Made by a program: the position numbers and the translations under genes. The notes under the pieces are model-generated. The model was not told where the DNA came from and ran no database searches. It saw only the letters and a list, made by a program, of their open reading frames with translations. Below are positions 35,310 to 51,310 of a stretch of 53,150 bases of DNA, piece by piece; within the stretch, counting starts at the first letter, position 1, and each line of letters begins with the position of its first letter. The DNA comes from Minisyncoccota bacterium (lineage in GTDB: Bacteria; Patescibacteriota; Minisyncoccia; Phycocordibacterales; PALSA-1337): assembly GCA_041662725.1 (NCBI GenBank), contig JBAZRX010000007.1:1-53150 (forward strand), written 5' to 3'.

Positions 35310-35437
35310 GAATTTTCCTTTTGTTGAACTAGTTCTAATTGAATACTACCCATAGGTATTGAAAACGCAAGCCAGATTGACAATATCCCGAAAACGACTA
35401 GTCTTTAATTCCAGACAACGAAAGGAAAAATTGATCT

Positions 35438-37039: not shown

Positions 37040-37058
37040 ATTGACCCCGCCATTCACG

Positions 37059-37092
37059 TGCCACTCCCCTCAAGGGTGTGGCACTTTTTTAT
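37059..37092. terminator. Terminator between convergent purH and purB
   Basis: GTGCCAC..GTGGCAC stem followed by TTTTT. Confidence 0.6.
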
Positions 37093-37151
37093 TGCACAAA
37101 AAAGACTCACCCTGCTTTCACAAAGTGAGTCTACTGAATCTGCGTTGGCGA

Positions 37152-38678: not shown

Positions 38679-38801
38679 ATGTGGCCCTTTCTATTGTTTT
38701 TTGTTTTCTGCACTTCTCGTGTCAATACTACTCAAAAGTATCGAAAAGGCAACAAAAAAACTCCGGGAGGTGTGACCCGGAGCGTGTAACTAAACGTGCT
38801 G

Positions 38802-40109
38802 TCACCAACTCATACCTGTCAGACGTTTCTCCTGGTCAAAGCGCAAGGCGGCATAGATGCTCGGATTGCGGATAGCCAGGATTTGCAGCGCCGCAAGCAC
38901 GGCATTCCCCGGCTCAAGGACCGTCATGGCCGGCACATTGCTCGGTGTCCGCAGTGATGACCAGACGTCTTCAGGGAATTCCTTGTACCCCGCAGGAACA
39001 GTGATAACCGGAACTGTTGAGTTCGCCGCCAAGGTGGGACCAGCACCGTTGCTTCGGCCGACATACGCGATGATCACGCTGTCGCACGGCTCTTCCTGCA
39101 AGTGTTGTTGCAACAGCTTGTATGCCAGCACCGGTTGCTTGTGAATGGAACAGGTGATCGGCAACAGTTGAAACTGCGGCTTTGGTTCCAATTTCATGAC
39201 CAGCTCTTCGACGGCCGTGAAGTGATCCTTATCGGAGCCGCACCAGACGATGAGACGCTGTGACGGGACCGTAAAGCGGTCCGTTAGTTCCGCAACTTCC
39301 CGATACTTGGTCGTAACCGTGTCGAGGTCACCACCGTCGCGATACACCTGCTTGTCGATGTAACCGCCGGAATGATCTACCACCCGCCATGAATCATTGT
39401 CGATGACGTCGGCCAGCCGGAGCTTACCTTCGGTATTGATGCCGAACTCGACCTTGAAGTCCACGAGCTTGCGCCCTTGGAGCTGCCATGCCTTCTCGAG
39501 GACCAGGAATGTCTGACGGGCGATGTCGCCCATTTGCTCGATGAGTTTCTGCTCATCGGGCTGAGTGAAGACCTGCGTCTCCGGCAAAGCCAGAAACGGC
39601 ATTGACGGCTTCTGGGCGAGGTTCGGTTGCTTGGGATCGTAAAGAAGAACCTGGGCGCCGTCGGCATCGTGAATCATGAGGGGATCGTCGCAGATGAGTG
39701 CGCTTTCCTTCCATTTCTTGCCGCTCGTCTTCAGATAGAACTCGAGGACCAACCTGGGAAAAACCTGCCCTTTCATGAGATGCGGTGCCCGCTTGAGATA
39801 CGATCCATGGGCTTCGCGCCGGACCACCACCTCATACGGCAACATGACGCATTTATCGGCAAGGAATTCGGTGGCTCCGTCCTGGCTTTCGAACGCTACG
39901 GGTATGTCACATGCCCGGAGGAGCCGGAACACGTTACAGGTCGTGCGTGTGGCCAAGGCGGCCTTGCCGTTGATGATGTCGTGCTTGGCACCGTCACCGG
40001 CCGTGATGTCGTCTTTTGATTCAATCCTGACTCTGGCAGGACTTCCCGGAATGGAGAAGATTCGTTTGGTCTTCCCCTCGTTCATTGGCTGAACTTCAGT
40101 CGTTTGCAT
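38802..40109 (-). CDS. purCE: Bifunctional SAICAR synthetase/AIR carboxylase (PurC-PurE, PAICS-type)
   Basis: EGKTK, SKDDITAGDG, GSYLKR, LVDFKVEFG, DVIDNDSWR; C-terminal GS.KD, SIHK, GRSNGAGP; probable ATG at 40109 with SD. Confidence 0.92.
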   Translation of the reverse strand: MQTTEVQPMNEGKTKRIFSIPGSPARVRIESKDDITAGDGAKHDIINGKAALATRTTCNVFRLLRACDIPVAFESQDGATEFLADKCVMLPYEVVVRREAHGSYLKRAPHLMKGQVFPRLVLEFYLKTSGKKWKESALICDDPLMIHDADGAQVLLYDPKQPNLAQKPSMPFLALPETQVFTQPDEQKLIEQMGDIARQTFLVLEKAWQLQGRKLVDFKVEFGINTEGKLRLADVIDNDSWRVVDHSGGYIDKQVYRDGGDLDTVTTKYREVAELTDRFTVPSQRLIVWCGSDKDHFTAVEELVMKLEPKPQFQLLPITCSIHKQPVLAYKLLQQHLQEEPCDSVIIAYVGRSNGAGPTLAANSTVPVITVPAGYKEFPEDVWSSLRTPSNVPAMTVLEPGNAVLAALQILAIRNPSIYAALRFDQEKRLTGMSW

Positions 40110-40163
40110 ATGTATTTTCCTTTCTTTGTACATTGGGAAGAATTCCCAAACCTGAGTCAAAAA

Positions 40164-42332
40164 CTACTCCTGGAGCAAGGGTAAGTCAAGATGGCGAATC
40201 TCCGCCTCAATCTTTTTATAATATCTTTCCCGTTGTTTGTATTGCCTCTCCAGAAATAGAATCTCTTTATCCCTATAGTCAACAATAGTTTTCTGAACAC
40301 CTCTGCCTCGCATCCGGCCGATATACTGCAGCAACTTTCCTTCAAACGAAAATGGAAATGCCAATATCAGGCAATTGATCCCCTTGATATCTAGCCCTTC
40401 TCCGAAAAATTGTCCCGTTGATAAGATAACCTTGTAGTGGCCGCCTTCGATCTGTTTGATTTTGGATGTCCGCGACGCAGCAGAATCATTCCCTGAAATA
40501 ATAATGGTCTCCAACTTGCCCTTGAGATACAGATTCAGAATTTCCAAATGATCTTTACGCTCACTCAAAACAAGCACTTGTTTACCCAATTCCACCTGTT
40601 TGAAAATATCATCCACTATCATCCTGTTGCGAGTCGTATCGAAGCAGATAATTTTGGCTAGCAATTGGAATTGATCTGTTGTGAATTTAAACGGAATACT
40701 CAAAGTCGTCGTTCGTATAATAATTTCAATGACTACCTCGACGCTTGGCACAATCGATACGAAGTCAGACATTTCCATACGGGAAATGATGTCGCCAATA
40801 AACGCATAGATTAACTTTTCATCATTATGCTTTCTTTGAGGAGTGGCGGTCAGCCCATAGATGTACTTCGGATTGAGTTGTGAGATAACCTCACGGAATG
40901 TTGATGCTGGTATGTGATGGCATTCATCAACAATGATCGTGCCGAACTGATTTTTCATATCTGATAAATCCTTCTTCCGGCCGAGACTCTGGAGTAATCC
41001 GACTGTAATCTGTTTCCCCACTTTTTTCTTGCCGCTTGAATATTGCCCGATATGAGTCTTGGCGATTCCAAGGAATGCCTGGATGCGCTCAACCCATTGA
41101 TCCAGGAGTTGCTTGCGATGGACTAGAATAAGTGCCGGTAATTTCTTTCTAGCTATAAGTTCCAAACCGATAATCGTCTTGCCACTGCCGGACGGTGCCA
41201 CGATTACGCCTTGGTCATGAGGCATGACATCTTGAATCGTTGAGATCTGAGGCAGGGTCAACTCGATCGAGCTCTTGAATAAAGTCTCCTCCACAACCGG
41301 ATGTTCAAAGCGGACCGAATATTTAATCCTGTGTTCCTCGAGAAAGTCTGTCAGTACATGCAGGAAACCGCGAGGTAGAAAAATGTTGTCGCCAGATTCT
41401 TCAACCAGCTTAAAATATTTCTCGACTTGATAGACGGATTTGCCGAGTCTGCGCTTTGTCAGGTATTCCGTATTAATGAAATTCAACTCCTCTTTCAAGA
41501 AATGGATGAGCTCAGGAACTAGCCCTGACCGCGGCATAACAATTTTATTGCTAACCAAAATATTAAGCTTCCCTGATCTCTTCGTCTCATGAAACTCTTT
41601 CCGTTCTTCCGAAAACAAAGCATTGTATACCTCATCCAATTCTACAGCTAAATGTCGTCTAATCTCACTCAAATACTCCCATTGATCAGAAAAAGCCTTG
41701 TCCGTTGTTAGATCAATGAAAACAGTGTTACCTTTCCGGACCGCCTTACTCTGAAACGGTAGCGCTATCAGATTTCCAAAACCATTCTTTGTCAGACTAT
41801 CTTGATTCGGAAAAAGCCGGTCGAAACTGACTTCTTTTTCGAATTCGGAAACATTTCGTATGCGGCGGATTATCTCAAGTCCAATCTGCCGGCTCTTATA
41901 ACATGGGTACGGTTCCGAGAAGAAAATCCAAACATGTCCGCCATTGCCGGACCGTGAACGTTCAAGATAAGCCGACAATCCAATTGCCGAGCACTGATCG
42001 ATGAATGCGCGTGATTCTTCCTTCCAATTTTCACCGTCAAAATCCGCAGCAAGAAAATGTGAAGTATTATCTTGCAAAATTGGATACACCCCAATGACAT
42101 GCTGACCGACCAAGTGTCCACGAATCACATCTTCAGTGAGAGGTATCAACCGCTTGTTCTCGAAATCCTTGAGTGTTCCGCCCCGGCGTTTGAACTCCAT
42201 GAATTCAGTCCAGTTGAATTCATACGCCGGCGCGTATCCCGATCGTCCATCTTTCTCCCAATGACGCGCATAAACATCGGCTCTTCCCCGAAATAGGGTC
42301 ATAAACAATTCGAGTTGTTGATCCTCTGTCAT
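40164..42332 (-). CDS. TOTE-type archaeo-eukaryotic primase fused to an SF2 (DEAD/DEAH-like) helicase
   Basis: FRGRADVYA, AADFD, ERSRSGNGGHVWIFF, LFPNQD, GNLIALP; APSGSGKT, DECHH, TATP, QYIGR. Confidence 0.85.
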   Translation of the reverse strand: MTEDQQLELFMTLFRGRADVYARHWEKDGRSGYAPAYEFNWTEFMEFKRRGGTLKDFENKRLIPLTEDVIRGHLVGQHVIGVYPILQDNTSHFLAADFDGENWKEESRAFIDQCSAIGLSAYLERSRSGNGGHVWIFFSEPYPCYKSRQIGLEIIRRIRNVSEFEKEVSFDRLFPNQDSLTKNGFGNLIALPFQSKAVRKGNTVFIDLTTDKAFSDQWEYLSEIRRHLAVELDEVYNALFSEERKEFHETKRSGKLNILVSNKIVMPRSGLVPELIHFLKEELNFINTEYLTKRRLGKSVYQVEKYFKLVEESGDNIFLPRGFLHVLTDFLEEHRIKYSVRFEHPVVEETLFKSSIELTLPQISTIQDVMPHDQGVIVAPSGSGKTIIGLELIARKKLPALILVHRKQLLDQWVERIQAFLGIAKTHIGQYSSGKKKVGKQITVGLLQSLGRKKDLSDMKNQFGTIIVDECHHIPASTFREVISQLNPKYIYGLTATPQRKHNDEKLIYAFIGDIISRMEMSDFVSIVPSVEVVIEIIIRTTTLSIPFKFTTDQFQLLAKIICFDTTRNRMIVDDIFKQVELGKQVLVLSERKDHLEILNLYLKGKLETIIISGNDSAASRTSKIKQIEGGHYKVILSTGQFFGEGLDIKGINCLILAFPFSFEGKLLQYIGRMRGRGVQKTIVDYRDKEILFLERQYKQRERYYKKIEAEIRHLDLPLLQE

Positions 42333-42582
42333 AACAATATGAGCCTACTACACCTCGCTAATTACCTCAATCGGCATTCATGCGACCGTAATCGCCGCCT
42401 TCTTGCCACCTGTTCGCCCCAGTGTGCGCTTTTCTGGCGCAAGTAAGGCATTTCCACGACTTCGGGCATGATTCGGGAGCGTGTGCCCGATTTCGAGGAA
42501 GTTAGTAGTCCGATTCAAAGATTAGTGAATCTATGCCGGATTTAACCTAAATTCACGCGAAAATTGCAAAGTTGCGTGAATA

Positions 42583-43098
42583 TTACTTCCTCTTCGGTCT
42601 TTCCCCTTTCAGTAACCTATCAAATGCCTCGAGATTACCCAAAGCATCATGGACAGGATTATGGTCATGCTTTGTTATACGCAAATGCTTCCAAGAGGAC
42701 GAGTCCATAAAATCTCCCGTAAGGCCGGCATAGAAATCACCAATTCTCCGCGCAGAATATCCGAACGGATTCCGGCCGAGAGTTCTCCAGAAGCTGTCAT
42801 TGATCCACTGCCAATCGAATGCAGGATTGTCGCTGACGAATTTCGGACGCTCTCCGCCGGTCATATCTGCGAGCCACTTCTCAAATTTCTCAAAAACCTC
42901 CTTCTCATCGAATACCTTTCCAGTATAAACACGAGTGGTCGGATTCTCGTCTGACCGATGGCCTTCGATGATGACACCATGGAATGTCGCCCTCGACGGA
43001 TATGCAACGGCGCCAAATTCCGTGAGCTTCCCCCTGCTCGGACATTTGCCATTGGCTTCGCAGTCAATGAAAATCAGGTTTTTGACTTCTATGCTCAT
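42583..43098 (-). CDS. DEDDh 3'-5' exonuclease (Cap18-like)
   Basis: FIDCE, AFDWQW, GRNPFG, HNPVHDA; begins 4 nt downstream of the CD-NTase. Confidence 0.85.
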   Translation of the reverse strand: MSIEVKNLIFIDCEANGKCPSRGKLTEFGAVAYPSRATFHGVIIEGHRSDENPTTRVYTGKVFDEKEVFEKFEKWLADMTGGERPKFVSDNPAFDWQWINDSFWRTLGRNPFGYSARRIGDFYAGLTGDFMDSSSWKHLRITKHDHNPVHDALGNLEAFDRLLKGERPKRK

Positions 43099-43102
43099 AA
43101 TT

Positions 43103-43870
43103 TTACCAAATAGCTTGATTCCAATTCCCTGCTAATGTTGTCTTGGCTAATTCTTTGACTTTAAGTTTTTCCGCAGCAGTTAATTCATCGGACACCTCAT
43201 TCTCTTGGTTTGCCGGATCTTTGATTGTCTTATTTTCAAAATCATTCACCAAATAATTCATTACTGTTATAAAGTTCGAAGAAGGACTAGAATTTATCAA
43301 GCCGCCCTCTTTCAAGGCTTCAATAACAGAAAGTTCAAGATAGAATGAAGGGAAATCCAATTTGTGAATCTTTCTCCAGATCTTTACAGCCTTGATATCA
43401 GGTATCCTGCCAGAGTTTTTCACATGATTTATATGCGCATCAATATTTGTCTTCGTCCAAGTCTGTGCCTTTCTTTTCCAGATTGAATGATCGAGCCCAA
43501 ACATTTGGTGCCGGACACCAGCAACGACATCAACTTTTAATCCTGTGTGGTCAATGCCTAAAGACACATTCTGCTCCCGCGCTGAATAGCCAGCTCCGTT
43601 AAATCTATTCCTCAGTGTGTTGTATACATTCTCAAGCGTGTTGCATGTACTCACCGATGGATCCAGAGATATAAATAAATCAATGTCGGTCGTGCCAGTT
43701 ATACCTGTCCCCTTTGCTAGCGAACCTGAAAGTTTCAGTGTATACGCGTGGCCATTTGCCCACGCATGGATGTGTGGCTTTAATTCATTGATCTTGTCTG
43801 CCACAATATAGGTAACATTCGGAGTATGCGCGGTAACAACATTCCGTATGTATTGATCGTTCTCGTTCAT
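43103..43870 (-). CDS. cGAS/DncV-like nucleotidyltransferase (CD-NTase)
   Basis: SGSLAKGT..DIDLF, REQNVS, VDVV, KIWR, FPSFYLEL, IKDPAN. Confidence 0.88.
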   Translation of the reverse strand: MNENDQYIRNVVTAHTPNVTYIVADKINELKPHIHAWANGHAYTLKLSGSLAKGTGITGTTDIDLFISLDPSVSTCNTLENVYNTLRNRFNGAGYSAREQNVSLGIDHTGLKVDVVAGVRHQMFGLDHSIWKRKAQTWTKTNIDAHINHVKNSGRIPDIKAVKIWRKIHKLDFPSFYLELSVIEALKEGGLINSSPSSNFITVMNYLVNDFENKTIKDPANQENEVSDELTAAEKLKVKELAKTTLAGNWNQAIW

Positions 43871-43871
43871 T

Positions 43872-44378
43872 TTATGATTCGTAGCTAGTCGTGATCATAG
43901 CGGTCACGATATCGTTTAATAAGCGCCCGCGGAAATTGGTTACAGCTGTGTGTCTTTTGCCATCAAGATTTTTCATCTGGTCATCGGGAATTCTACCCTT
44001 CTCGTACGGAGCGTACACAACGAGAGCACAGGCATCGGGTTTTTTCGAAAGAATCTCATCGATACTGTCCGACCAGTCCTGCCAAAAAACGAGGTATATA
44101 GATGCCTCTTCGGCTTTTCCAATATCGCTGACATTCTTTATTTCAAAAACATTCTTTGCACGAAAAAGCTTTGAATCTAATAGAAGGCTTCTCAAACTGC
44201 CTGCATTATCCCCTTTAGCAAATACTGCGATCTTTCGCCTTGCGAGTCCATTACCGAGACGAAATAACGCTGGTGAAATACCACGTACCCAGAGAACGGT
44301 TCCCCACACAATACCAACCAGAAGAATAATCGTCTCAATTATCCCGACATACGCTATAATCTGTAAAAATAAGGCCAT
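43872..44378 (-). CDS. Putative CBASS effector: N-terminal TM plus a Rossmann-like (NARF-like) domain
   Basis: Hydrophobic residues ~3-32; alpha/beta domain ending NFRGRLLNDI; 1-nt gap to the CD-NTase. Confidence 0.65.
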   Translation of the reverse strand: MALFLQIIAYVGIIETIILLVGIVWGTVLWVRGISPALFRLGNGLARRKIAVFAKGDNAGSLRSLLLDSKLFRAKNVFEIKNVSDIGKAEEASIYLVFWQDWSDSIDEILSKKPDACALVVYAPYEKGRIPDDQMKNLDGKRHTAVTNFRGRLLNDIVTAMITTSYES

Positions 44379-44392
44379 AATAATTTATTAAC

Positions 44393-44420
44393 TGTAAACT
44401 TGTTTAGGTTATGTTTAGGT
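44393..44420. promoter_or_regulatory. Candidate operator in the divergent CBASS/lexA intergenic region
   Basis: TAAAC-TT-GTTTA palindrome and TGTTTAGGT direct repeats at 44401 and 44412. Confidence 0.4.
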
Positions 44421-44428
44421 AGTATACT

Positions 44429-45061
44429 ATGACCATGAAAATAAAGTCAAGCATGGGTATCGGCAAACCATCAAAGCGACAAGCCGAGATACTTCACTTT
44501 GCGAGGGAGTACCGGAGAGAAAACGGCTACTCCCCTTCTTTGGTGGAGATGGCAAAACATTTTGGTATTTCTATACCCACGATTCACCAGCATGTCCATT
44601 CACTTCAAGATAAGAACCTTCTTACGATCGAAAAAGGCAAGAAGCGTTCAATCCAAGCGCTTCATAACCACAGATTACCTGGCGTCGAAATACCCCTTAT
44701 GGGATATATTGCAGCAGGAGGTCCAATCGAGGCAATCCGGGAACCAGAACCAATCGAAGTCCCCCGAAGCATGTTAACTTCTGGCTTCAATCACTACGCT
44801 TTGAAAGTCACCGGGCGGAGCATGATCGAGGAAGGCATCTCGGACGGCGACATTGTCATAGTCCGTGACCAACCAACGGTCGATGATGGGGAAAAAGCTG
44901 TCGCATATATGCCTGATAGAAACGAGGTCACCCTCAAAAAGATTTATCGAGAAAGAAATCGCATCAAATTGGTGCCTGCAAATAAATTTATGAAGCCATT
45001 TTATGAGACGAATGTCGAAATACAAGGTAAGGTCGTAGGAGTTCTTAGGAAAGAATCTTAA
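44429..45061 (+). CDS. lexA: LexA-family repressor
   Basis: wHTH (RQAEIL..GYSPS..EMA), IAAG cleavage site, GRSM catalytic Ser, TLKK catalytic Lys. Confidence 0.9.
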   Translation: MTMKIKSSMGIGKPSKRQAEILHFAREYRRENGYSPSLVEMAKHFGISIPTIHQHVHSLQDKNLLTIEKGKKRSIQALHNHRLPGVEIPLMGYIAAGGPIEAIREPEPIEVPRSMLTSGFNHYALKVTGRSMIEEGISDGDIVIVRDQPTVDDGEKAVAYMPDRNEVTLKKIYRERNRIKLVPANKFMKPFYETNVEIQGKVVGVLRKES

Positions 45062-45081
45062 TCAGTGATAAAATAAATTAT

Positions 45082-46656
45082 ATGCCATTAGTATCCATAC
45101 CAGAAGCATCAAAGTGGGCGTCAGATTATCTCGAGAAAGAGGTAACGCCGGCAAACATCTCGTACTTGGTACAGTATGGGAAGGTTAAAAAGCATGGCGA
45201 AAATGGTTCGACCATGATTGATTCCCATGATCTCAAAAATTACTACAAATCTTCACAAGGTAAACGCGAGGTGAGCTGGAAAAAACACCTCGGGAATGAT
45301 CTGAATTGGGCATTATCATTTGATCATCTTCGAGAAAAGGACACGACCAAACACGTCCACCGCCTTCACCCTTACAAAGGAAAATATATTCCCCAGCTTG
45401 TTCAATATTTCATCGACGACCACACTGACGACTTCAAGAAGCAGACCTACTTTAAACCAGGTGACATCATTCTTGATCCATTCCTAGGGTCCGGTACTAC
45501 ACTTATTCAATCGCTGGAAATGGGTATTCACTCAATAGGGATGGATGTCTCTGAATTCAACTGCATGATTGCCAGCTGCAAGGCTACACATTACGATCAC
45601 GAATATCTACAGAAGGCTATCAAGAAAATGTTAGCCGCCCTCGATTCATTCGAGCATGATAATAAGGTGCAGGATTTCGAAAATGAGCTCCTAGCAGAGC
45701 TAGCAAAATTCAATAACAAATATTTCCCAGGTTATGAATTTAAGTACCAGATGAATCAAAATAATATGGACGAGAGCTCTATTGCAACTGAAAAGCAAAA
45801 GGAATTCCTGCCTATATACCAGAAGTTGCTTAAGAAATATTCCATAAAGCTCAAACAGAATGTTTCTGACTCTTTTCTTGATATCTGGTTTATGGACAAT
45901 GTCCGCAGCGAGATTGACCACGTATTCAAAGCTGTAAAAAATGAGAAGGATGTGAAGGTTAGGAAGCTCCTTGCATTAATTCTGAGCAGAACAATCAGAT
46001 CATGCAGGGCAACCACACATAGCGATCTTGCCACCCTCAAAGAACCTCAGCTGACGACTTATTATTGCTTTAAGCATAAGAAGATTTGCAAACCGTTGTT
46101 TTCGATAAAGACGATGCTCAATCGCTATGCTTTTGACACTATGAGCCGAGTAAAAGAATTCGACCAGCTACGCAAGCCGGTGCACTACTCCGCTATTGCT
46201 GGAGACTCCAGAGCTGTAAACATTTTTGACAAGGTTGAAAAACAGAACCCTGAATTTTCAAAAATCCTTAAGAAACAGAAGATTGCCGGAATATTCTGTT
46301 CCCCGCCATATGTCGGCCAAATCGATTATCATGAGCAACATGCCTATGCCTATGATTTACTTGGATTCAAGCGAAAAGATGAACTCGAGATAGGACCGCT
46401 CCAAAATGGCCAAGGACTTGAAGCTCGACGAGCGTATGTCCAAGGCATTGCTGATGTACTAAACAACTGCAGAAAGTATTTCACAGACAATCCGGATGTA
46501 TTCTTGGTCGCTAATGACAAGTATAATCTTTACCCTGAAATCGCCGAAAAATCAGGAATGAAGATAGTAAATCAATTTAAGCGGCCGGTCTTAAATCGAA
46601 CTGAGCGCGATCGTACCCCTTATTCAGAAATAATATTCCACTTAAAATTAAAATAA
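45082..46656 (+). CDS. Amino (probably N4-cytosine) DNA methyltransferase with an N-terminal HTH-like extension
   Basis: HPYKGKY, DPFLGSGTT (motif I) preceding SPPY (motif IV). Confidence 0.9.
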   Translation: MPLVSIPEASKWASDYLEKEVTPANISYLVQYGKVKKHGENGSTMIDSHDLKNYYKSSQGKREVSWKKHLGNDLNWALSFDHLREKDTTKHVHRLHPYKGKYIPQLVQYFIDDHTDDFKKQTYFKPGDIILDPFLGSGTTLIQSLEMGIHSIGMDVSEFNCMIASCKATHYDHEYLQKAIKKMLAALDSFEHDNKVQDFENELLAELAKFNNKYFPGYEFKYQMNQNNMDESSIATEKQKEFLPIYQKLLKKYSIKLKQNVSDSFLDIWFMDNVRSEIDHVFKAVKNEKDVKVRKLLALILSRTIRSCRATTHSDLATLKEPQLTTYYCFKHKKICKPLFSIKTMLNRYAFDTMSRVKEFDQLRKPVHYSAIAGDSRAVNIFDKVEKQNPEFSKILKKQKIAGIFCSPPYVGQIDYHEQHAYAYDLLGFKRKDELEIGPLQNGQGLEARRAYVQGIADVLNNCRKYFTDNPDVFLVANDKYNLYPEIAEKSGMKIVNQFKRPVLNRTERDRTPYSEIIFHLKLK

Positions 46657-46657
46657 T

Positions 46658-47440
46658 ATGGCTCTATCAAAAGAACAAGTCAAAGCAGTCGAGGATACCT
46701 TGAAGCTCAGTCTCCGTAATAAATTTCAGAATTATAATCCTGAGCCGGCGTCGATGCCTTTCCATACACGTCTTCTTGGAAAAGACCGTCTGGCTCTTTA
46801 CGCCTTTATCCATTCGCTCAACACCAACTTCGGTAGCAGTATCTTCGAGCCGGTCGGTCTTACCCTCGCTCAAAAGAATTTCAAGATGGCCACGGCACAA
46901 GCTACGGCTGGTGAGCAGATCAGTACTGGCGCCCAAGCAGAAATTCAAAAGATCATTGATGGCCTTACAACCGCCACAACTACTCCAAACAAGAAAGACG
47001 AGGTCGAAAGGATACGAAAGGTCTGCCAAACCGGAAAAATGATCACGGTAAAACCTACGAAGGTTGATCTAATGTTTGAAGGAAAGGATGGTTCGTATTA
47101 CCTCTTTGATATTAAGACTGCAAAACCAAATGCTGGTGACTTTAAAGAATTCAAACGTACGTTGCTCGAATGGGTAGCTGTTATCTTGGCTAACAAGCCC
47201 GATGCGAAAATACATACCTTTATCGCCATTCCCTATAACCCATACGAGCCAGAACCATATACTCGATGGACAATGCGCGGCATGCTTGATCTTGAAAACG
47301 AGCTCAAGGTAGCGGATGAATTCTGGGATTTCCTAGGGGGTAAAAATACCTACAAAGACCTGCTTGATTGCTTTGAGCGCGTCGGTATTGAGCTACGAGA
47401 TGAAATTGACACTTATTTCAAGCGTTTCAATAAGAAATAG
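46658..47440 (+). CDS. Type II restriction endonuclease (TdeIII-like)
   Basis: HSLNTNFG..FE, VDL..DIKTAKPN (PD-D/ExK), PYNPY, FWDFL; 1 nt after the MTase. Confidence 0.85.
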   Translation: MALSKEQVKAVEDTLKLSLRNKFQNYNPEPASMPFHTRLLGKDRLALYAFIHSLNTNFGSSIFEPVGLTLAQKNFKMATAQATAGEQISTGAQAEIQKIIDGLTTATTTPNKKDEVERIRKVCQTGKMITVKPTKVDLMFEGKDGSYYLFDIKTAKPNAGDFKEFKRTLLEWVAVILANKPDAKIHTFIAIPYNPYEPEPYTRWTMRGMLDLENELKVADEFWDFLGGKNTYKDLLDCFERVGIELRDEIDTYFKRFNKK

Positions 47441-47443
47441 CCG

Positions 47444-47517
47444 AATGTAAACAAAGTAGGCATGTATGTTTACATCTTACGCACCAATGTAAACAAACTA
47501 GCATTTTCCTTTACATT
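47444..47517. promoter_or_regulatory. Two ATGTAAA(CA) inverted-repeat sites
   Basis: AATGTAAACAAA at 47444 and 47486; inverted TGTTTACAT at 47467 and TTTACATT at 47510. Confidence 0.5.
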
Positions 47518-47585
47518 CAAGGACGAGATGTAAGGGTTCCTTGCGCATACGCCTATCCTGCACTAGTATCAGGCTCATAATTACA

Positions 47586-48221
47586 ATGAATATTCCAGAG
47601 AGTCCTTACCAGCGACTCATAGACATCATCGACCTTATACTCGTAAAAAATGAAACCGTGCAAGGTGGTTCAATTTCTCTTCATGTCCTCGAATTACCGG
47701 CACTGCCACAAAACAGCCTCGGTAACCAGATCTTGGTAGACACACTTAAAACACTCAAACAAAAACAACTGATCGCAACCTTCAGTGGCGTGAGTCAATA
47801 TCGTATACCGAAGCTTGACGCTGAAGCTGAAAAGAAGTTAACCAGTGAGAGGCAAAATCTGTTTAATCGTATCAGCACAGCGAGGCCGGACCATGCGAAT
47901 GTATATCTGAAAGATGAGACGGTTTCATTCAACGACGAGCAATCGATAATCCAGATTGGTAAGAAAACGTGCGCATTGCCTCCATTCAAAAATGAGCACT
48001 ACTTCTGCCAGGCTATGTTCTCACATCTACCGAATGAGCCTGTCGATTGGTCCCTTATCTACAAGCAGATGAACGGTAACCATGCGGATATCGCGGATGA
48101 GAAACATAAACGGACCATTCAAGACACTATGTATGCACTAAATAACCGAATCAAGAAGACCGTTAACACAGATGATGCTTTATTTACATGGGAAAATAGA
48201 ACTGTAAAGCGAAACTTCTAG
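47586..48221 (+). CDS. Hypothetical protein with a possible C-terminal winged-helix domain
   Basis: OmpR-C-like pattern (WSLIY..TIQDTMYALNNRI); probable ATG at 47586. Confidence 0.55.
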   Translation: MNIPESPYQRLIDIIDLILVKNETVQGGSISLHVLELPALPQNSLGNQILVDTLKTLKQKQLIATFSGVSQYRIPKLDAEAEKKLTSERQNLFNRISTARPDHANVYLKDETVSFNDEQSIIQIGKKTCALPPFKNEHYFCQAMFSHLPNEPVDWSLIYKQMNGNHADIADEKHKRTIQDTMYALNNRIKKTVNTDDALFTWENRTVKRNF

Positions 48222-48304
48222 ACACTCATCCGAGTCGTAATTGAGTCAATACCATTCAAAGTAGACTTTCACACGAGAGTCTATTTTTTATTCGCTTAAT
48301 TACA

Positions 48305-48559
48305 ATGAGTATGAAAACAATCCACGAGACCGACTTCTATCGCACCTCCGACCTCGCATGCGCGGCGGCTGTTTCCCTGTTCGTGCAACTCGATAGCATC
48401 GATAAGACCGACAGACGCCGGGCATTTTTCATATTCGAACGGAATAGCGAATTGGATGGACTGCTCGAATCGTTCTGGAAAGGTGCGTTGCAGGTCGAGC
48501 CGCGTGCCTACTTCGATCAGATCAAGGCGCTGAAGACACGTTTGTACGAAATCGACTAA
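48305..48559 (+). CDS. DUF5659-like small element protein
   Basis: FYRTSDL..AA, RAFFIF, FWKG.LQVEP..YF..IK.LK. Confidence 0.7.
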   Translation: MSMKTIHETDFYRTSDLACAAAVSLFVQLDSIDKTDRRRAFFIFERNSELDGLLESFWKGALQVEPRAYFDQIKALKTRLYEID

Positions 48560-48560
48560 C

Positions 48561-48725
48561 ATGCCCGCTCAACCCTGCAAAGCACAGATGGTCCCGGCAC
48601 TGACGTCGAAAAACGAGCAGATCTTCATCGATCGCTTGATCGAGATATTGCTCATGCAGGTTGAGCCTAATGAAAATGAAAATCATCGACTTCGAAAAAA
48701 TACTCGGATTCATAACATTGTTTAG
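48561..48725 (+). CDS. Small hypothetical protein (54 aa)
   Basis: Manual translation MPAQPCKAQMVPALTSKNEQIFIDRLIEILLMQV...; starts 1 nt after the previous stop. Confidence 0.4.
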   Translation: MPAQPCKAQMVPALTSKNEQIFIDRLIEILLMQVEPNENENHRLRKNTRIHNIV

Positions 48726-49143
48726 ATACGACCTGTTTGTCCGAATGGCCGAACTGGAAGACGCTGAAATGCGCATGTATCTTTGCTATGCCGCTCTCGC
48801 CCCATTCAAAGATGGTGCAAGTCGCGAAGTTGGAGTAGTCGATATTACATTTGATGAGTTGCTAGCCGGTCCGCTTAAGACGTGGTCCAAGAGCTCAGCA
48901 AGCCGCACTCGAGCATCGCTAATACGCAAAGGATGGTTAACCCTGAGAGGCAAACGTCTGATCGTGGTCAATCACTATCCCCTGTACAAAGCGAAGATGA
49001 AAGATATGAAACGGATTATCCTACAGGTGAAACCGGGAGTTGCACTAACGGATAAGAGTATTGCGCAGGCGGAACAAAACACCCTATGTGGATTAAATGT
49101 GGATAAGCAAAAACTGTTGGAAAAGCTCACTAAACCGCCATAA
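48670..49143 (+). CDS. Hypothetical HTH protein (possible replication initiator)
   Basis: SKSSASRTRASLIRKGWL helix-wing pattern; upstream of a repeat-rich spacer. Confidence 0.45.
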   Translation: MKMKIIDFEKILGFITLFRYDLFVRMAELEDAEMRMYLCYAALAPFKDGASREVGVVDITFDELLAGPLKTWSKSSASRTRASLIRKGWLTLRGKRLIVVNHYPLYKAKMKDMKRIILQVKPGVALTDKSIAQAEQNTLCGLNVDKQKLLEKLTKPP

Positions 49144-49241: not shown

Positions 49242-49594
49242 TCACAAAATCACAAAAGCCCAATCTCACAAAATGGCTACAGATAAGGGTTTTGCCAAAA
49301 TAGATGGCCATAGATGTCCACTCAATAGGTGTGAGAAAATTCAGAAAGGTCAAAATCAGAACATGGCCGAGTTAAGGCATCTTGCCAAAATAGATACACA
49401 AAGATACACACTCGATCAGCACATTCAGAATCGCACGCATTTGAGCCACCGCGCCAAAATAACCACGAATCAACACCAATGAATAATCATACGGAAATTA
49501 GCCACCGTTTCAAAATAACCTGCAATCAACCGTAACGAAATACCGAAAAGTCGATTTCTAGAACTGGCTCTATTGAGCCACCACGCCAAAATAG
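49242..49594. repeat. Iteron-like direct repeats
   Basis: GCCAAAATA at 49294, 49384, 49453 and 49585; 21-bp near-repeat at 49441/49573; TCACAAAA three times. Confidence 0.7.
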
Positions 49595-49660
49595 AGACGA
49601 ATAGATACGAACGAAACTTCTTGATATCTTCCCCATTCATTGCATACTGTGACCACAACC

Positions 49661-51247
49661 ATGAACAAAGCCCTGATTTACACACGCGTTTCCACTGAGG
49701 AACAAGCCACGTCTGACCGGCATTCGCTGAAGACGCAACTTTCTCTGTGCGAGAAAGCCATCGACGATAGCGGCGAGTATAAGCTCGCGCCGGATGGCGT
49801 CTACAACGATCCCGGCAAGAGCGCTACCAACATGAAGCGTCCGGGACTTCAGGACATGCTCCTGCGTATCCAGGAAGACAAAACTATCAGAGCCGTCTTC
49901 GTTCAGGACACCGACCGCTTGGCAAGAAATACTACCGACCACCTGACCATCAAAGCTTTGCTCGCCAAGCATCAGGTGAAGCTCATCTCCGTATCGCAAC
50001 CAGGACTCGAAGACACACCCGAGGGCAATCTCATGGATACGATCATCGCCGGCTTCAATCAATTCCAGTCACAACTCACCGCCCGCAAGAGCACCAAGAG
50101 CATGGCGCAGAAATTCAGCGACGGTGGTTGGCCGACACATGCGCCAATCGGTTACCTGAATGTCGGAGAGAAAGATAACGAAAAGAAACGAACGGTTATT
50201 GTCGACCCCATTCGGGGACCGCTCATCCAGGAAGCCTTCAAGCTCTATGCTACCGGTGACTACTCTGCCGTGGCCGTCTTGGACATCATTCATGAGAAAG
50301 GCTTCCGTGCCAGAAATGGCAAGCGTATCATGTTAGGCAAATTCGCCGACATGTTCAAGAATCATTTCTACTACGGCGAGATGCGCTGGCGCGGGCTTGT
50401 CGGTCCCGGAAAGCATCAGCCGCTCATCGACAAGGAGCTCTACGACCGTTGCCAGAGGATCACCGAGGAGCACAACCACCGCGCCTGCCGCCGGCACAAG
50501 CATAACTTCATCCTGCGAGGATTCATCCGTTGCGCCATCTGTGGTTGCCGATACACGGCCGAGCATAACTTCAAGAAGAAGATATCGTACTACCACTGCA
50601 ACCGATACAAGAATAATATTCCAGGAAATATAAAATGCTCCGACATGTTCGTCGAGATGAGTAATCTGGAAAATCAGGTTCAGGAACAATTCAACCGCCT
50701 GCAATTCACCGACGACTTCATCGCCAAGATCGAGGCTCGGCTAAAAATCGTCTACGAAGAAAAGAAAAGCTCGGTCACTGACGAGAAAAGTCGGATCATG
50801 CAGGCCAAGCTTTCAGTAGAGAGCAAGCTCGAACGTGCCGAGCACAAATTGATCGACGGCGTCATTGATGACCAATCTTTTGAACGCTTGAAGAAAGCCT
50901 ATCGCGAGCAGATCGAGGACTTCGAGAACCAGATCGCCAAGCTGGACCGCTCCAAGAACATCAAGGTAGACGTGATACAGCAGGTTCTGGCGCTCACCCG
51001 CGACATCGGGACCTCATACAGCAATGCCAAACCGGAACTCAAGCAGCTTTATCTCGGACTTTTCTGGCATCATTTCTTGGCTAAGGAGCGGAAAATCGTC
51101 GAAGCGGTGAAATCGCCAATCGTCGTGGCTTTGGAAGAAGTCGGAGCGATAACCGATGCCGCCGAAAACACCATGAATACGCCCATTCCTAGCCCTATGT
51201 CGGACGTGGGATCATCGGTTATAAATAATACCTTCAGGGGTGCCTAG
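49661..51247 (+). CDS. Large serine recombinase
   Basis: YTRVSTEEQ, DRLAR, APIGY, GKHQPLI, CAICGCRY zinc ribbon and coiled coil; stop codon lies inside tRNA-His. Confidence 0.95.
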   Translation: MNKALIYTRVSTEEQATSDRHSLKTQLSLCEKAIDDSGEYKLAPDGVYNDPGKSATNMKRPGLQDMLLRIQEDKTIRAVFVQDTDRLARNTTDHLTIKALLAKHQVKLISVSQPGLEDTPEGNLMDTIIAGFNQFQSQLTARKSTKSMAQKFSDGGWPTHAPIGYLNVGEKDNEKKRTVIVDPIRGPLIQEAFKLYATGDYSAVAVLDIIHEKGFRARNGKRIMLGKFADMFKNHFYYGEMRWRGLVGPGKHQPLIDKELYDRCQRITEEHNHRACRRHKHNFILRGFIRCAICGCRYTAEHNFKKKISYYHCNRYKNNIPGNIKCSDMFVEMSNLENQVQEQFNRLQFTDDFIAKIEARLKIVYEEKKSSVTDEKSRIMQAKLSVESKLERAEHKLIDGVIDDQSFERLKKAYREQIEDFENQIAKLDRSKNIKVDVIQQVLALTRDIGTSYSNAKPELKQLYLGLFWHHFLAKERKIVEAVKSPIVVALEEVGAITDAAENTMNTPIPSPMSDVGSSVINNTFRGA

Positions 51248-51310
51248 AGAGAATCGGACTCTCGATACCGGTTCCACAAACCGGAGTTTTACCACTAAAC
51301 TATAGGCACC
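51237..51310 (-). tRNA. tRNA-His (GTG)
   Basis: G-1 plus acceptor GTGCCTA/TAGGCAC, C73, anticodon arm CCGGT-TTGTGGA-ACCGG; genomic 3' end reads CCT rather than CCA. Confidence 0.93.

What the first reader, a model, noticed from the sequence alone, without database searches (positions are those of the whole stretch)
42583..47440. One LexA-like repressor sits between CBASS and a Type II R-M operon: a candidate DNA-damage-inducible dual defence switch
Seen: a full LexA (wHTH, Ala-Gly cleavage site, Ser/Lys dyad) starts 50 nt from the divergent CBASS operon. It is also the first gene of a lexA-MTase-REase run (gaps of 20 and 1 nt). Known: CBASS can be controlled by damage-sensing regulators (CapH/CapP, CapW), whereas R-M systems usually use C proteins. 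Inference: RecA-stimulated self-cleavage could co-induce both systems. A LexA heading an R-M operon is an unusual regulatory design.
Basis: partly seen in the sequence, partly recalled or inferred. Interest (0 to 1): 0.8.

Follow-up and report, generated by a model that had tools for sequence, protein, structure and literature searches.

The report
LexA hub linking R-M and CBASS
A self-cleaving SOS repressor gene (lexA) sits on a compact two-way promoter that reads into a restriction-modification operon on one side and a CBASS anti-phage operon on the other; the same layout, with other methylases and other defence cassettes, recurs in dozens of candidate-phyla-radiation bacteria, which suggests (untested) that DNA damage is the shared alarm for these immune genes.

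Summary
The minus strand carries a three-gene CBASS: 1-TM effector, CD-NTase, DEDDh exonuclease. A complete LexA faces it, followed by an N6/N4 methyltransferase (gap 20 nt) and a TdeIII-family endonuclease (gap 1 nt).

It is not a one-off. In 74 non-redundant related loci, almost all labelled Patescibacteria, the gene just downstream of lexA is a DNA methyltransferase in about 70. Four unrelated MTase families are involved. At least 120 protein clusters are LexA-MTase fusions. The divergent upstream slot holds interchangeable defence cassettes: CBASS in about 15 loci, plus ThsB-TIR, MBL/TM and E1-ubiquitin-like types.

The intergenic DNA is a conserved back-to-back promoter. A direct repeat, TTTAGGT-N4-TTTAGGT (44403-44420), lies next to a palindromic -10 that serves both strands. 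The leftward -35 (TTGAC) is embedded in lexA codons 4-6. One bound LexA would therefore block both promoters.

Damage induction, LexA binding and RecA dependence are inferred, not shown. The link is primarily LexA-methylase. In about 28 of 63 loci the endonuclease is a separate convergent unit, so methylation homeostasis is a serious alternative to a defence boost.

I found no description of this in the searchable literature. One 2017 paper on Patescibacteria LexA could not be read.

The parts
42583..43098 (-). DEDDh 3'-5' exonuclease, last gene of the CBASS operon (accessory)
   Evidence: PADLOC 'Effector Exonuclease' PDLC00753 9.9e-15 and Pfam Rv2179c-like/RNase_T. Present only in the window and the L001 group; other loci with the same cyclase and TM pair lack it.
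43103..43870 (-). CD-NTase (CBASS oligonucleotide cyclase), 255 aa
   Evidence: PADLOC cyclase PDLC00803 3.6e-78 over its full length; Pfam SMODS; NCBIfam CBASS_cyclase_b 6.8e-15, below that model's cutoff. The GS...DID active-site motif can be read in the translation.
43872..44378 (-). 1-TM CBASS effector, first gene of the leftward operon
   Evidence: PADLOC Effector 1TM PDLC00664 9.8e-62 and C3a59 TM 6.1e-52. No Pfam hit.
44400..44405 (+). -35 hexamer TTGTTT of the rightward (lexA) promoter, 17 nt from the -10 TATACT (44423-44428)
   Evidence: Read from the sequence. The stretch CTTGTTTAGG is 90-100% conserved in 77 distinct promoters. The block of nucleotide homology to L012 and L024 starts at 44398.
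44403..44420 (.). Putative LexA operator: direct repeat TTTAGGT-TATG-TTTAGGT with an 11-bp period
   Evidence: One copy per locus, always at the lexA promoter, in 749 kb of related loci. It is the only perfect match in the window; weaker matches are at chance level. The repeat bases are about 90-100% conserved while the 4-nt spacer varies. It is absent where the LexA recognition helix differs. Binding has not been tested.
44421..44428 (.). Palindromic -10 octamer AGTATACT, giving TATACT on both strands
   Evidence: Among 77 promoters: AGTATACT 40, ATTATAAT 25, hybrids 10. Positions 2 and 7 covary, Fisher p = 2e-10, with the caveat that the sequences are related.
44445..44450 (-). -35 hexamer TTGACT of the leftward (CBASS) promoter, embedded in lexA codons 4-6; 18-nt spacer to the minus-strand -10 (44426-44421)
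   Evidence: The promoter scan gives TTGACT-18-TATACT, 10 of 12 matches, the joint best match in 42300-48400. GTCAA sits at a fixed offset in 72-73 of 77 promoters. The codon before it always ends in G (72 of 72) although the residue varies (K/E/A/L/M/Q). A control Lys codon is AAG 40 / AAA 37.
   Evidence: TIGR00498 159.7 bits against a cutoff of 110.95. LexA_DNA_bind plus Peptidase_S24. Cleavage site and Ser/Lys dyad aligned to PDB LexA structures. The ATG lies 6 nt after the -10 in 74 of 77 promoters.
45082..46656 (+). Type II DNA methyltransferase (N6/N4 class), 524 aa, 20 nt after lexA
   Evidence: PADLOC MTase_II PDLC03249 8.7e-221; Pfam N6_N4_Mtase. About 80-96% identical in roughly 26 loci that share this lexA-M-R layout.
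46658..47440 (+). TdeIII-family type II restriction endonuclease, 260 aa, 1 nt after the MTase
   Evidence: Pfam RE_TdeIII 4.1e-94. Nucleotide homology to L001, L012 and L024 ends at its stop codon.

Best explanation
The window holds one member of a conserved Patescibacterial defence locus built around lexA.

The 56-nt intergenic region carries two back-to-back sigma-70-type promoters that share a palindromic -10 (44421-44428). The rightward promoter makes a probably leaderless lexA-MTase-REase mRNA, starting near 44435. The leftward promoter has its -35 inside the first codons of lexA and makes the CBASS mRNA, starting near 44414.

A single LexA operator, the direct repeat TTTAGGT-N4-TTTAGGT at 44403-44420, covers positions -32 to -15 of the rightward promoter and -6 to +12 of the leftward one. 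Bound LexA should therefore hold both units at a low, autoregulated level.

When ssDNA-RecA filaments form, LexA cuts itself at Ala-Gly. Such filaments could arise from phage attack, from processing of restricted DNA, or from self-restriction. Both promoters then fire: methylase (here with endonuclease) to the right, CBASS to the left.

Shown here: gene identities, operon spacing, conservation of the architecture, fusion proteins, and the sequence anatomy and nucleotide-level constraint of the promoter.

Inferred: that the repeat is the LexA site, that both promoters are used, that cleavage is RecA-dependent, and the physiological purpose (priming a second-line defence, restoring methylation, or both).
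For: 1. LexA is complete and keeps its catalytic residues in all 20 relatives displayed in the alignment.
2. lexA-MTase linkage. 72 of 76 downstream genes are co-directional, with gaps from -8 to 51 nt. About 70 of 74 are DNA MTases from four Pfam families: N6_N4 35, C5 26, Eco57I 6, D12 3.
3. Fusions. LexA_DNA_bind + S24 + MTase occur in one ORF in L155, L162 and L175. L182 has the LexA DNA-binding domain fused to an MTase without S24, behind the same promoter. At least 120 90%-identity clusters of 455-526 aa have this architecture.
4. The divergent slot. 74 of 80 upstream genes are divergent, with a median gap of 71.5 nt. They include CBASS cyclases (about 15), ThsB-TIR (about 11 proteins), MBL/PDC-M48 (6) and ThiF/multiubiquitin. 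Next to fusion proteins they include OLD-TOPRIM + PDDEXK + PIF1, or DndB.
5. The promoter. The best minus-strand match is TTGACT-18-TATACT. Nucleotide constraint inside the lexA codons is independent of the encoded residue. The -10 is palindromic and covaries.
6. The operator. The repeat is unique to lexA promoters. It co-occurs with the recognition helix S(I/V)PT(I/V)HQH, and is missing where that helix is TAPTAHQH or S(V/I)STAHFH.
7. Precedent. Direct-repeat LexA sites with an 11-bp period are known (GTTC-N7-GTTC, PMC8565304). PMC7739468 cites the Patescibacteria study among its direct-repeat cases.
8. Modularity. Nucleotide homology blocks break exactly at the promoter edge (44398), at the lexA stop (45082) and at the REase stop (47440). 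LexA clades follow the downstream R-M type, while the upstream cassettes are shuffled.
Against: - There are no binding, transcript-mapping or induction data.
- No recA lies in the window or in any fetched locus, so a RecA partner is assumed.
- The rightward -35 (TTGTTT) matches the consensus at only 3 of 6 positions and was not reported by the promoter scan.
- Promoter-like hits in the region are no more frequent than in shuffled sequence (10 found against 12 expected). The argument rests on conservation, not on the scan.
- In 13 of 74 loci the gap to the divergent gene exceeds 110 nt, so some cassettes may have their own promoters.
- In 28 of 63 loci the REase is convergent and in at least 11 is accompanied by a small C-protein-like HTH gene. 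'Dual defence induction' cannot be the general logic of the right arm.
- The same M-R pair survives without LexA: with a decayed lexA in a 2.1-Mb contig, and with no lexA in an archaeal MAG.
- The loci were found through similarity to this LexA or its operator, so the statistics describe this LexA family only.
Confidence: 0.55

Rival explanations
1. LexA here is essentially an R-M controller. It works like a damage-sensitive C protein, or like the HTH domain of self-regulating methylases. It sets the methylase level when the system is established, and raises it when under-methylation, recombination repair or self-restriction produces RecA filaments, a form of restriction alleviation for type II systems. 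CBASS merely sits next to it, as defence genes cluster, and is not meaningfully LexA-controlled.
For: - The invariant partner is the MTase, in about 70 of 74 loci.
- LexA-MTase fusions are abundant, and L182 keeps only the DNA-binding domain.
- In 28 of 63 loci the REase is outside the lexA transcription unit, in at least 11 next to a small C-protein-like HTH gene.
- The upstream cassette type is unrelated to the LexA clade.
- Damage-triggered restriction alleviation is established for type I systems (PMC11109961, abstract).
Against: - The minus-strand -35 is embedded in lexA and is conserved at the nucleotide level independently of the protein sequence.
- The -10 is palindromic.
- 74 of 80 upstream genes are divergent, at a median of 71.5 nt.
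- Together these argue that leftward transcription starts inside the operator-controlled region. In the window itself the REase is co-transcribed, so the M:R ratio would not shift.
Confidence: 0.22
2. This is simply the host's ordinary SOS lexA, with a genome-wide repair regulon. R-M and other defence genes pile up beside it because the site is an insertion hotspot next to a tRNA gene, with no special regulatory meaning.
For: - It passes the LexA equivalog model.
- An SOS network for Patescibacteria has been published (Sanchez-Osuna, Barbe and Erill 2017, cited), but I could not read it.
- The window and L001 share the right-hand context, tRNA-His and a cobalamin adenosyltransferase.
- Four-fold degenerate sites of the module are about 50% identical against 37% for the flanking gene. 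The high protein identity is therefore mostly constraint, not recent transfer.
Against: - Insertion next to a housekeeping gene does not predict operon spacing of -8 to 51 nt, four unrelated MTase families in the same slot, hundreds of gene fusions, or a promoter for the neighbouring cassette built into the lexA codons.
- LexA clades track the R-M type, not the taxonomic labels.
- No second operator copy occurs in 749 kb of flanks or in the 53-kb window.
- This rival is not exclusive. The same LexA could also have distant targets.
Confidence: 0.13
3. LexA is the repressor of an integrative mobile island, in the manner of CI or SetR. Its real target is excision or transfer through the large serine recombinase, and the defence genes are cargo.
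For: - A large serine recombinase lies downstream in the window (49640-51247) and in at least 10 other loci, next to a tRNA gene (His, Ser, Lys, Val).
- In L051 the recombinase follows lexA directly, with a 3-nt gap.
- LexA control of recombinases has a precedent in integron integrases (Cambray et al. 2011, reference seen).
Against: - Recombinases are present in a minority of loci and are only 21-29% identical to the window's.
- They are usually separated from the lexA operon by other genes and long gaps; in the window the gap is about 2.2 kb and holds three ORFs.
- No phage or conjugation genes are present.
- Neither LexA nor its promoter is found in the viral contig collection.
Confidence: 0.06

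Closest known systems
LexA / SOS repressor (TIGR00498), including the Patescibacteria LexA studied by Sanchez-Osuna, Barbe and Erill (Environ Microbiol 2017; not readable here)
   Same: Winged-HTH plus S24 domain, Ala-Gly site, Ser/Lys dyad, a score above the equivalog cutoff, and an operator at its own promoter. The direct-repeat operator geometry (11-bp period) matches known non-palindromic LexA sites.
   Different: No repair gene is seen under its control. The operator was found only at lexA itself. The gene is co-transcribed with, or fused to, a DNA methyltransferase, and shares its promoter with a defence cassette.
CapH/CapP and CapW: DNA-damage-responsive regulators of CBASS (bioRxiv 10.1101/2022.04.27.489752, abstract; the rest from my own knowledge)
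   Same: A repressor encoded next to CBASS that is removed by proteolysis in response to a DNA-damage signal, raising CBASS expression.
   Different: CapH is an XRE-type HTH cleaved by a separate metallopeptidase, CapP; CapW is a WYL protein. Here a single self-cleaving S24 LexA is used, and it is shared with an R-M operon. No CapH, CapP or CapW homologue is present.
C (controller) proteins of type II R-M systems, and methylases with an N-terminal autoregulatory HTH such as M.SsoII (own knowledge)
   Same: A small DNA-binding module encoded at the head of the R-M genes that feeds back on their promoter. The L182-type protein (LexA DNA-binding domain + MTase) has the same design as the HTH-methylases.
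   Different: C proteins are 70-100-aa HTH_3 proteins, usually ahead of the REase, with no signal input. Here the controller is a LexA with a damage-sensing protease domain, ahead of the MTase. In at least 11 related loci a C-protein-like HTH_3 gene is present as well, next to the convergent REase.
LexA-controlled integron integrase (Guerin et al. 2009, from my own knowledge; Cambray et al. 2011, reference seen)
   Same: A LexA box in a compact divergent promoter region beside an array of exchangeable cassettes; the SOS response is coupled to a mobile, modular locus.
   Different: There LexA is the distant host regulator and the target is a tyrosine recombinase. Here lexA is part of the locus, and the cassettes are whole defence systems on both sides of it.
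Restriction alleviation of type I R-M systems after DNA damage (PMC11109961)
   Same: The logic of protecting the chromosome from its own restriction enzyme when repair creates unmodified sites.
   Different: The known mechanism is ClpXP proteolysis of HsdR. Here it would be transcriptional induction of the methylase through LexA cleavage, in type II systems. This is a hypothesis only.
Symmetric bidirectional bacterial promoters that share a -10 region (Warman et al. 2021, own knowledge)
   Same: Two divergent start sites about 20 bp apart, produced by a -10 element that reads as TATAMT on both strands.
   Different: Here the symmetry is conserved and covaries, and a repressor site is placed to control both directions.

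Membership tests
LexA (TIGR00498 / PF01726 + PF00717) | N-terminal LexA winged-HTH DNA-binding domain | tested here: met
   Pfam LexA_DNA_bind 8.6e-10, residues 15-73.
LexA (TIGR00498 / PF01726 + PF00717) | C-terminal S24 peptidase domain with Ser/Lys dyad and an Ala-Gly cleavage site | tested here: met
   Peptidase_S24 3.9e-25. Alignment to PDB 3k2z and E. coli LexA places A96-G97, S131 and K170 at the canonical positions. They are conserved in the 20 relatives displayed in the alignment.
LexA (TIGR00498 / PF01726 + PF00717) | Score above the curated equivalog cutoff | tested here: met
   159.7 bits against a cutoff of 110.95.
LexA (TIGR00498 / PF01726 + PF00717) | Binds an operator in its own promoter (autoregulation) | tested here: inconclusive
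   A conserved direct repeat overlaps the promoter and co-occurs with one type of recognition helix.
LexA (TIGR00498 / PF01726 + PF00717) | RecA-stimulated self-cleavage, and control of DNA-repair genes (SOS regulon) | not testable with these tools
   No recA and no second operator in the window or in 749 kb of related loci. Whole genomes could not be fetched.
CBASS, minimal cyclase + effector form (type I, by my own recollection of the usual classification) | CD-NTase with an intact nucleotidyltransferase motif | tested here: met
   PADLOC cyclase 3.6e-78 over the full length. GS...DID motif in the translation.
CBASS, minimal cyclase + effector form (type I, by my own recollection of the usual classification) | Adjacent effector, and no Cap2/Cap3 or HORMA/TRIP13 genes | tested here: met
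   1-TM effector 9.8e-62. The neighbours are an exonuclease and a TOTE primase-helicase; no E1/E2/JAB or HORMA hits.
Type II restriction-modification system | Separate MTase and REase genes side by side | tested here: met
   MTase_II 8.7e-221 and RE_TdeIII 4.1e-94, 1 nt apart. The recognition sequence was not determined.
C-protein-controlled R-M system | Small HTH_3 controller gene (about 70-100 aa) upstream of the REase | tested here: not met
   None is present in the window. Related loci with a convergent REase do have one (cluster c4, HTH_3 2.4e-16).
CapH/CapP or CapW regulated CBASS | XRE-type repressor plus IrrE-like metallopeptidase, or a WYL-domain regulator, next to CBASS | tested here: not met
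   Pfam and PADLOC scans of all neighbouring genes show none. The only regulator is LexA.

The most novel reading that the evidence does not exclude
In Patescibacteria, LexA is not mainly a DNA-repair regulator. It is the dedicated, damage-sensing master switch of modular immune loci. It is welded to R-M methyltransferases, as the first gene of the operon or as a LexA-MTase fusion protein, so that RecA filaments raise methylation. Such filaments could come from restricted phage DNA or from self-restriction. Through a symmetric two-way promoter, the same signal would also arm whichever abortive-infection cassette (CBASS, TIR, MBL, ubiquitin-like, OLD/Gabija-like) occupies the opposite slot. The conserved lexA gene would also serve as the homology anchor through which these cassettes are exchanged between lineages.
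Probability: 0.35. Interest if true: 0.9.

Novelty: new variant of a known kind. Interest (0 to 1): 0.8.

Why it matters
Candidate-phyla-radiation bacteria mostly lack CRISPR (my own knowledge) and have tiny genomes, and how they regulate immunity is unknown. This locus suggests a simple rule: one SOS-type repressor, one operator and one symmetric promoter, with an R-M methylase on one side and a swappable second-line defence on the other.

If the model holds, it would be:
- the first case of LexA as the built-in controller of R-M systems, and of naturally occurring LexA-methyltransferase fusions;
- a transcriptional route to restriction alleviation in type II systems;
- a direct wiring of first-line defence (restriction, which makes DNA ends) to the induction of abortive-infection systems.

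It also gives a compact, portable part for synthetic biology: a damage-inducible bidirectional promoter with its cognate repressor. The conserved promoter would serve as a search handle for new defence cassettes in uncultured bacteria, since whatever lies in the divergent slot is a defence candidate.

Tried and rejected
1. Other regulon members. An exact search for TTTAGGTTWTSTTTAGGT in the metagenome collection returned 120 loci. Every hit with the promoter context belonged to lexA or a LexA fusion. The rest were telomere-like or simple TTAGG-type repeats, or lacked the promoter context. No second site appeared in 749 kb of related loci or in the window. This does not exclude degenerate sites elsewhere in the genomes.
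2. Phage origin. Neither LexA nor the 26-nt promoter core is in the viral contig collection.
3. An att repeat of tRNA-His at the left end of the island. None was found. This is expected if a serine recombinase is responsible.
4. Recent horizontal transfer, judged from window against L001. Rejected as proof. Four-fold sites of the module are only 43-55% identical against 37% for the flanking gene, so the 88-99% protein identity reflects constraint.
5. The inverted repeat GATAAC...GTTATC (DnaA-box-like TGTGGATAAC) as the operator. Rejected for the window, because its left arm is absent here and in L001 while the direct repeat is always kept.
6. Methylation-sensitive operator. Unlikely, because the operator is constant while four MTase families alternate.
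7. recA near lexA. Not found.
8. The 2017 Patescibacteria SOS paper could not be obtained. Literature searches for LexA with R-M, CBASS, CPR or fusions found nothing relevant.
9. Whether the host has a second lexA.

Full report
**1. What is in the window**

On the minus strand lies a three-gene CBASS operon:
- a 1-TM effector at 43872-44378 (PADLOC 9.8e-62);
- a 255-aa CD-NTase at 43103-43870 (PADLOC cyclase 3.6e-78);
- a DEDDh exonuclease at 42583-43098.

On the plus strand lie three more genes:
- lexA, called as an ORF at 44429-45061;
- an N6/N4-class methyltransferase at 45082-46656, 20 nt after lexA;
- a TdeIII-family endonuclease at 46658-47440, 1 nt after the methyltransferase.

LexA passes the NCBIfam equivalog model (159.7 bits against a cutoff of 110.95). 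Aligned to solved LexA structures, it keeps the Ala-Gly site (A96-G97), Ser131 and Lys170.

One correction is needed. The real start is almost certainly the ATG at 44435, giving 208 aa. Relatives are 207-209 aa, and in 74 of 77 distinct promoters the ATG lies exactly 6 nt after the -10 hexamer. The mRNA would then be leaderless.

The wider context is as follows. The host-like DNA (1-34 kb and beyond 51.3 kb) has about 35-38% G+C and carries housekeeping genes. The stretch from 40.2 to 51.2 kb has about 43% G+C. It begins with a TOTE-type primase-helicase and ends with a large serine recombinase whose 3' end overlaps tRNA-His.

**2. The neighbourhood is conserved, and the conserved partner is a methylase**

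LexA has more than 1400 relatives. The best 120 are 72-93% identical, and the few that carry a source name are almost all labelled as Patescibacteria (CPR). I fetched 59 genome loci and 120 metagenome loci, and removed duplicates.

Downstream of lexA:
- The next gene is co-directional in 72 of 76 loci, with gaps from -8 to 51 nt and a median of 19 nt.
- Pfam scans of 74 such genes give N6_N4_Mtase 35, C-5 DNA_methylase 26, Eco57I-type 6 and D12-class 3.
- Two more are Vsr genes, themselves followed by a C5 methylase.
- The only other exceptions are one serine recombinase and one rRNA-type methylase.
- Even a LexA only 38-39% identical to the window's (L064) is followed by a D12 methylase.

Two architectures exist among the 63 loci where the second downstream gene is visible:
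- In about 26 loci the layout matches the window: lexA, a 524-aa methylase and a 260-aa endonuclease, all co-directional.
- In 28 loci the gene after the methylase is convergent. Representatives are restriction endonucleases (HindVP and Alw26I families), and in at least 11 loci a small HTH_3 C-protein-like gene lies alongside.

The strongest evidence for a functional link is gene fusion. L155 and L162 encode LexA_DNA_bind + Peptidase_S24 + N6_N4_Mtase in one ORF. L175 encodes LexA + a D12 methylase. L182 encodes only the LexA DNA-binding domain fused to a methylase, behind the same promoter.

A database search with L155 returned at least 120 clusters at 90% identity, 455-526 aa long, all with this three-domain architecture and from many CPR lineages. 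Two fusions examined on long contigs have the familiar surroundings. A convergent small gene lies downstream. A divergent cassette lies upstream: OLD-TOPRIM + PDDEXK + PIF1 helicase in one case, DndB in the other.

**3. The divergent slot holds interchangeable defence cassettes**

The upstream gene is divergent in 74 of 80 loci, with a median gap of 71.5 nt. Among 122 upstream proteins, Pfam and PADLOC find the following:
- CBASS cyclases of several clades, with TM, SLATT or Cap15-like effectors (about 15 loci);
- ThsB-type TIR proteins (11 proteins);
- the MBL + TM pair PDC-M48 (6);
- ThiF/E1 + multiubiquitin + DUF6791 (3-4);
- GIY-YIG nucleases, Clp/SDH proteases, patatin and others.

The window's own cassette (cyclase c8 + TM effector c6) recurs in L001, L010 and L033. 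In L033 it sits next to a different R-M system.

A clustering of LexA sequences follows the downstream R-M type rather than the taxonomic labels, whereas the upstream cassettes are shuffled across it.

Nucleotide homology blocks break at precise points:
- The window and L012 or L024 share 44398-47440, that is, from the -35 to the REase stop.
- The window and L033 share 43104-45082, that is, from the cyclase to the end of lexA.
- The window and L001 share 42575-47441.

lexA with its promoter is therefore the pivot around which both arms are exchanged.

**4. Anatomy of the intergenic region**

The sequence from 44398 to 44437 reads:

`AC TTGTTT AGGTTATGTTTAGGTAG TATACT ATGACC ATG`

Across 77 distinct promoters the core is 90-100% conserved. 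Its elements are:
- **Rightward promoter.** The -35 is TTGTTT at 44400-44405, followed by a 17-nt spacer and the -10 TATACT at 44423-44428. The predicted start is at the ATG, 44435.
- **Direct repeat.** TTTAGGT-N4-TTTAGGT occupies 44403-44420, with an 11-bp period.
- **Shared -10.** The -10 lies inside an octamer that is palindromic in 65 of 77 cases (AGTATACT 40, ATTATAAT 25). Positions 2 and 7 covary (Fisher p = 2e-10, with the caveat that the sequences are related). Both strands therefore read TATAMT.
- **Leftward promoter.** On the minus strand the scan finds TTGACT-18-TATACT at 44450 to 44421, 10 of 12 matches and the joint best score in the region.

The leftward -35 lies inside lexA codons 4-6. 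GTCAA is at a fixed offset in 72-73 of 77 promoters. The codon before it ends in G in 72 of 72 cases although the residue varies (K, E, A, L, M, Q). A control lysine codon nearby is AAG 40 / AAA 37. This is selection on the DNA, not on the protein.

The predicted leftward start is near 44414. The repeat therefore covers -32 to -15 of the rightward promoter and -6 to +12 of the leftward one. A single bound LexA dimer would occlude both.

Three observations make the repeat the likely LexA site, although none proves it:
- It occurs once per locus, and only at lexA.
- It is present wherever the recognition helix reads S(I/V)PT(I/V)HQH. It is absent in relatives whose helix reads TAPTAHQH or S(V/I)STAHFH, even though their C-terminal domains remain about 80% identical by inspection of the alignment.
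- Direct-repeat LexA boxes with the same period are known (GTTC-N7-GTTC). The Patescibacteria study is cited among the direct-repeat cases.

**5. How it most likely works, and the alternatives**

The best reading is a LexA-operated two-way promoter (confidence about 0.55).
- In the resting state, LexA holds lexA-M-R and CBASS at a low level.
- When RecA-ssDNA filaments form, LexA cleaves itself and both arms are derepressed.

Gene content, spacing, fusions and promoter constraint are shown. Binding, use of both promoters, RecA dependence and the physiological purpose are inferred.

The purpose is open. Because the conserved partner is the methylase, and the endonuclease is often outside the unit, the right arm may primarily be a homeostat. 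Too little methylation or recombination repair would lead to breaks, then to LexA cleavage, then to more methylase. This would resemble the restriction alleviation known for type I systems (PMC11109961). In the window the endonuclease is co-transcribed, so both enzymes would rise together.

The left arm fits a layered-defence logic. Restriction of phage DNA produces ends and RecA filaments, and this would prime CBASS. It works like CapH/CapP-controlled CBASS (bioRxiv 10.1101/2022.04.27.489752), but the parts are unrelated.

The rivals are as follows.
- **R-M controller only (0.22).** LexA controls the methylase, and CBASS is not meaningfully under its control.
- **Ordinary SOS LexA in an insertion hotspot (0.13).** This is not exclusive of the main model. 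It is weakened by the operon spacing, the fusions and the embedded promoter.
- **Mobile-island repressor acting on the serine recombinase (0.06).** Recombinases are present in a minority of loci, are only 21-29% identical to the window's, and lie at a distance. However, L051 has lexA followed directly by a recombinase.

**6. Mobility and dispensability**

Protein identity of the module between the window and L001 is 88-99%, against 55% for the flanking adenosyltransferase. Four-fold degenerate sites, however, are only 43-55% identical against 37%. The difference is therefore mainly purifying selection, and this pair gives no proof of recent transfer.

Transfer over longer times is indicated in two ways:
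- LexA clades follow the R-M type rather than the taxonomic labels.
- On a 2.1-Mb contig, the same promoter, MTase and REase (REase 79% identical) follow a decayed lexA that has a stop codon and has lost residues 65-173.

In an archaeal MAG the same M-R pair has no lexA at all. The R-M system can therefore work without LexA. LexA is retained intact in the Patescibacteria-labelled loci.

**7. Comparison with what is known, and novelty**

As a protein this is a LexA family member, and the membership tests are met except for those that need experiments. As a system it resembles several known designs: C-protein or HTH-methylase control of R-M systems, CapH/CapP control of CBASS, LexA-controlled integron integrases, and symmetric bidirectional promoters. 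It is a member of none of them.

Searches of the held literature found no description of lexA-methylase operons or fusions, or of LexA-linked CBASS. The one directly relevant paper, Sanchez-Osuna et al. 2017 on the Patescibacteria DNA-damage network, is not held. It may already report the motif, and possibly the operon partners.

I therefore rate this a new variant of a known kind, with high interest (0.8).

**8. Limits**

- All related loci were found through similarity to this LexA or to its operator, so the figures describe this family only.
- Genes in the loci were called with a simple ORF picker.
- The taxonomic labels of metagenome-assembled genomes are unreliable.
- The host's full genome, its recA gene and any second lexA could not be examined.

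Noticed in passing
window 40164-42332 (-): A 722-aa protein with a TOTE-type archaeo-eukaryotic primase domain (Pfam AEP-TOTE 5.3e-82) fused to an SF2/ResIII helicase. It lies directly beside the CBASS operon and is probably a third conflict system in the same island.
   Followed up: no
window 34197-40160: A block of purine-synthesis genes at 52-57% G+C inside a host of about 35% G+C: an AIRS/PurM-like gene with Pfam hits, and ORFs I read as PurH, PurB-like and a PurC/PurE-like fusion from their translations alone. It looks horizontally acquired and abuts the defence island.
   Followed up: no
window 49292-51309: A large serine recombinase (49640-51247) whose stop overlaps the 3' end of tRNA-His (51237-51309, minus strand). 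Upstream of it lie three 55-nt and two 35-nt direct repeats (49292-49615). In related loci the island's right end also abuts a tRNA gene (His, Ser, Lys, Val, Asn), often with a recombinase that is only 21-29% identical.
   Followed up: partly
window 42391-42465; L001 7539-7613: A 75-nt non-coding block, 89% identical between the window and L001, lies just outside the CBASS operon. L001 also has a 28-nt partial second copy. There is no Rfam hit and no similarity to the tRNA. It could be an island end or a small RNA.
   Followed up: partly
window 1868-5518 (-): A 1216-aa class I aminoacyl-tRNA synthetase (I/L/M/V type) carries a histidine-phosphatase (His_Phos_1) domain inserted at residues 565-731, between the catalytic and anticodon-binding parts.
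   Followed up: no
L008-L063 and many metagenome loci, 5-6 nt upstream of the lexA -35; absent at window 44385-44397: Most related promoters carry TGTGGATAAC, a perfect DnaA-box complement. It forms an inverted repeat with GGTTATC inside the operator. In Saccharibacteria both arms change together (GAAAAC / GTTTTC). The window and L001 lack the left arm. Possible roles are a second protein site, a hairpin in the 5' UTR of the leftward transcript, or a cassette junction.
   Followed up: partly
L054, L057, L058, L060 (LexA genes): These LexA proteins have a classical S(V/I)STAHFH recognition helix and no TTTAGGT repeats. Their C-terminal domains are still about 80% identical (by inspection) to the window's, and the same defence/R-M architecture surrounds them. 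This looks like a swap of the DNA-binding domain within one family.
   Followed up: partly
L190 4060-6783 (contig of 2.1 Mb): The same promoter/operator, MTase and REase (REase 79% identical) follow a decayed lexA with a stop codon and an internal deletion of residues 65-173. The module has apparently entered a larger genome and lost the repressor.
   Followed up: yes
window 47541-49143: Three small ORFs lie between the REase and the recombinase: a 226-aa protein with no family hit (26% identical over part of its length to the ORF in the same position in L024), a DUF5659 protein (48305-48559) and a 160-aa protein with no hit. Their functions are unknown, and it is unclear whether they belong to the lexA operon.
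   Followed up: no
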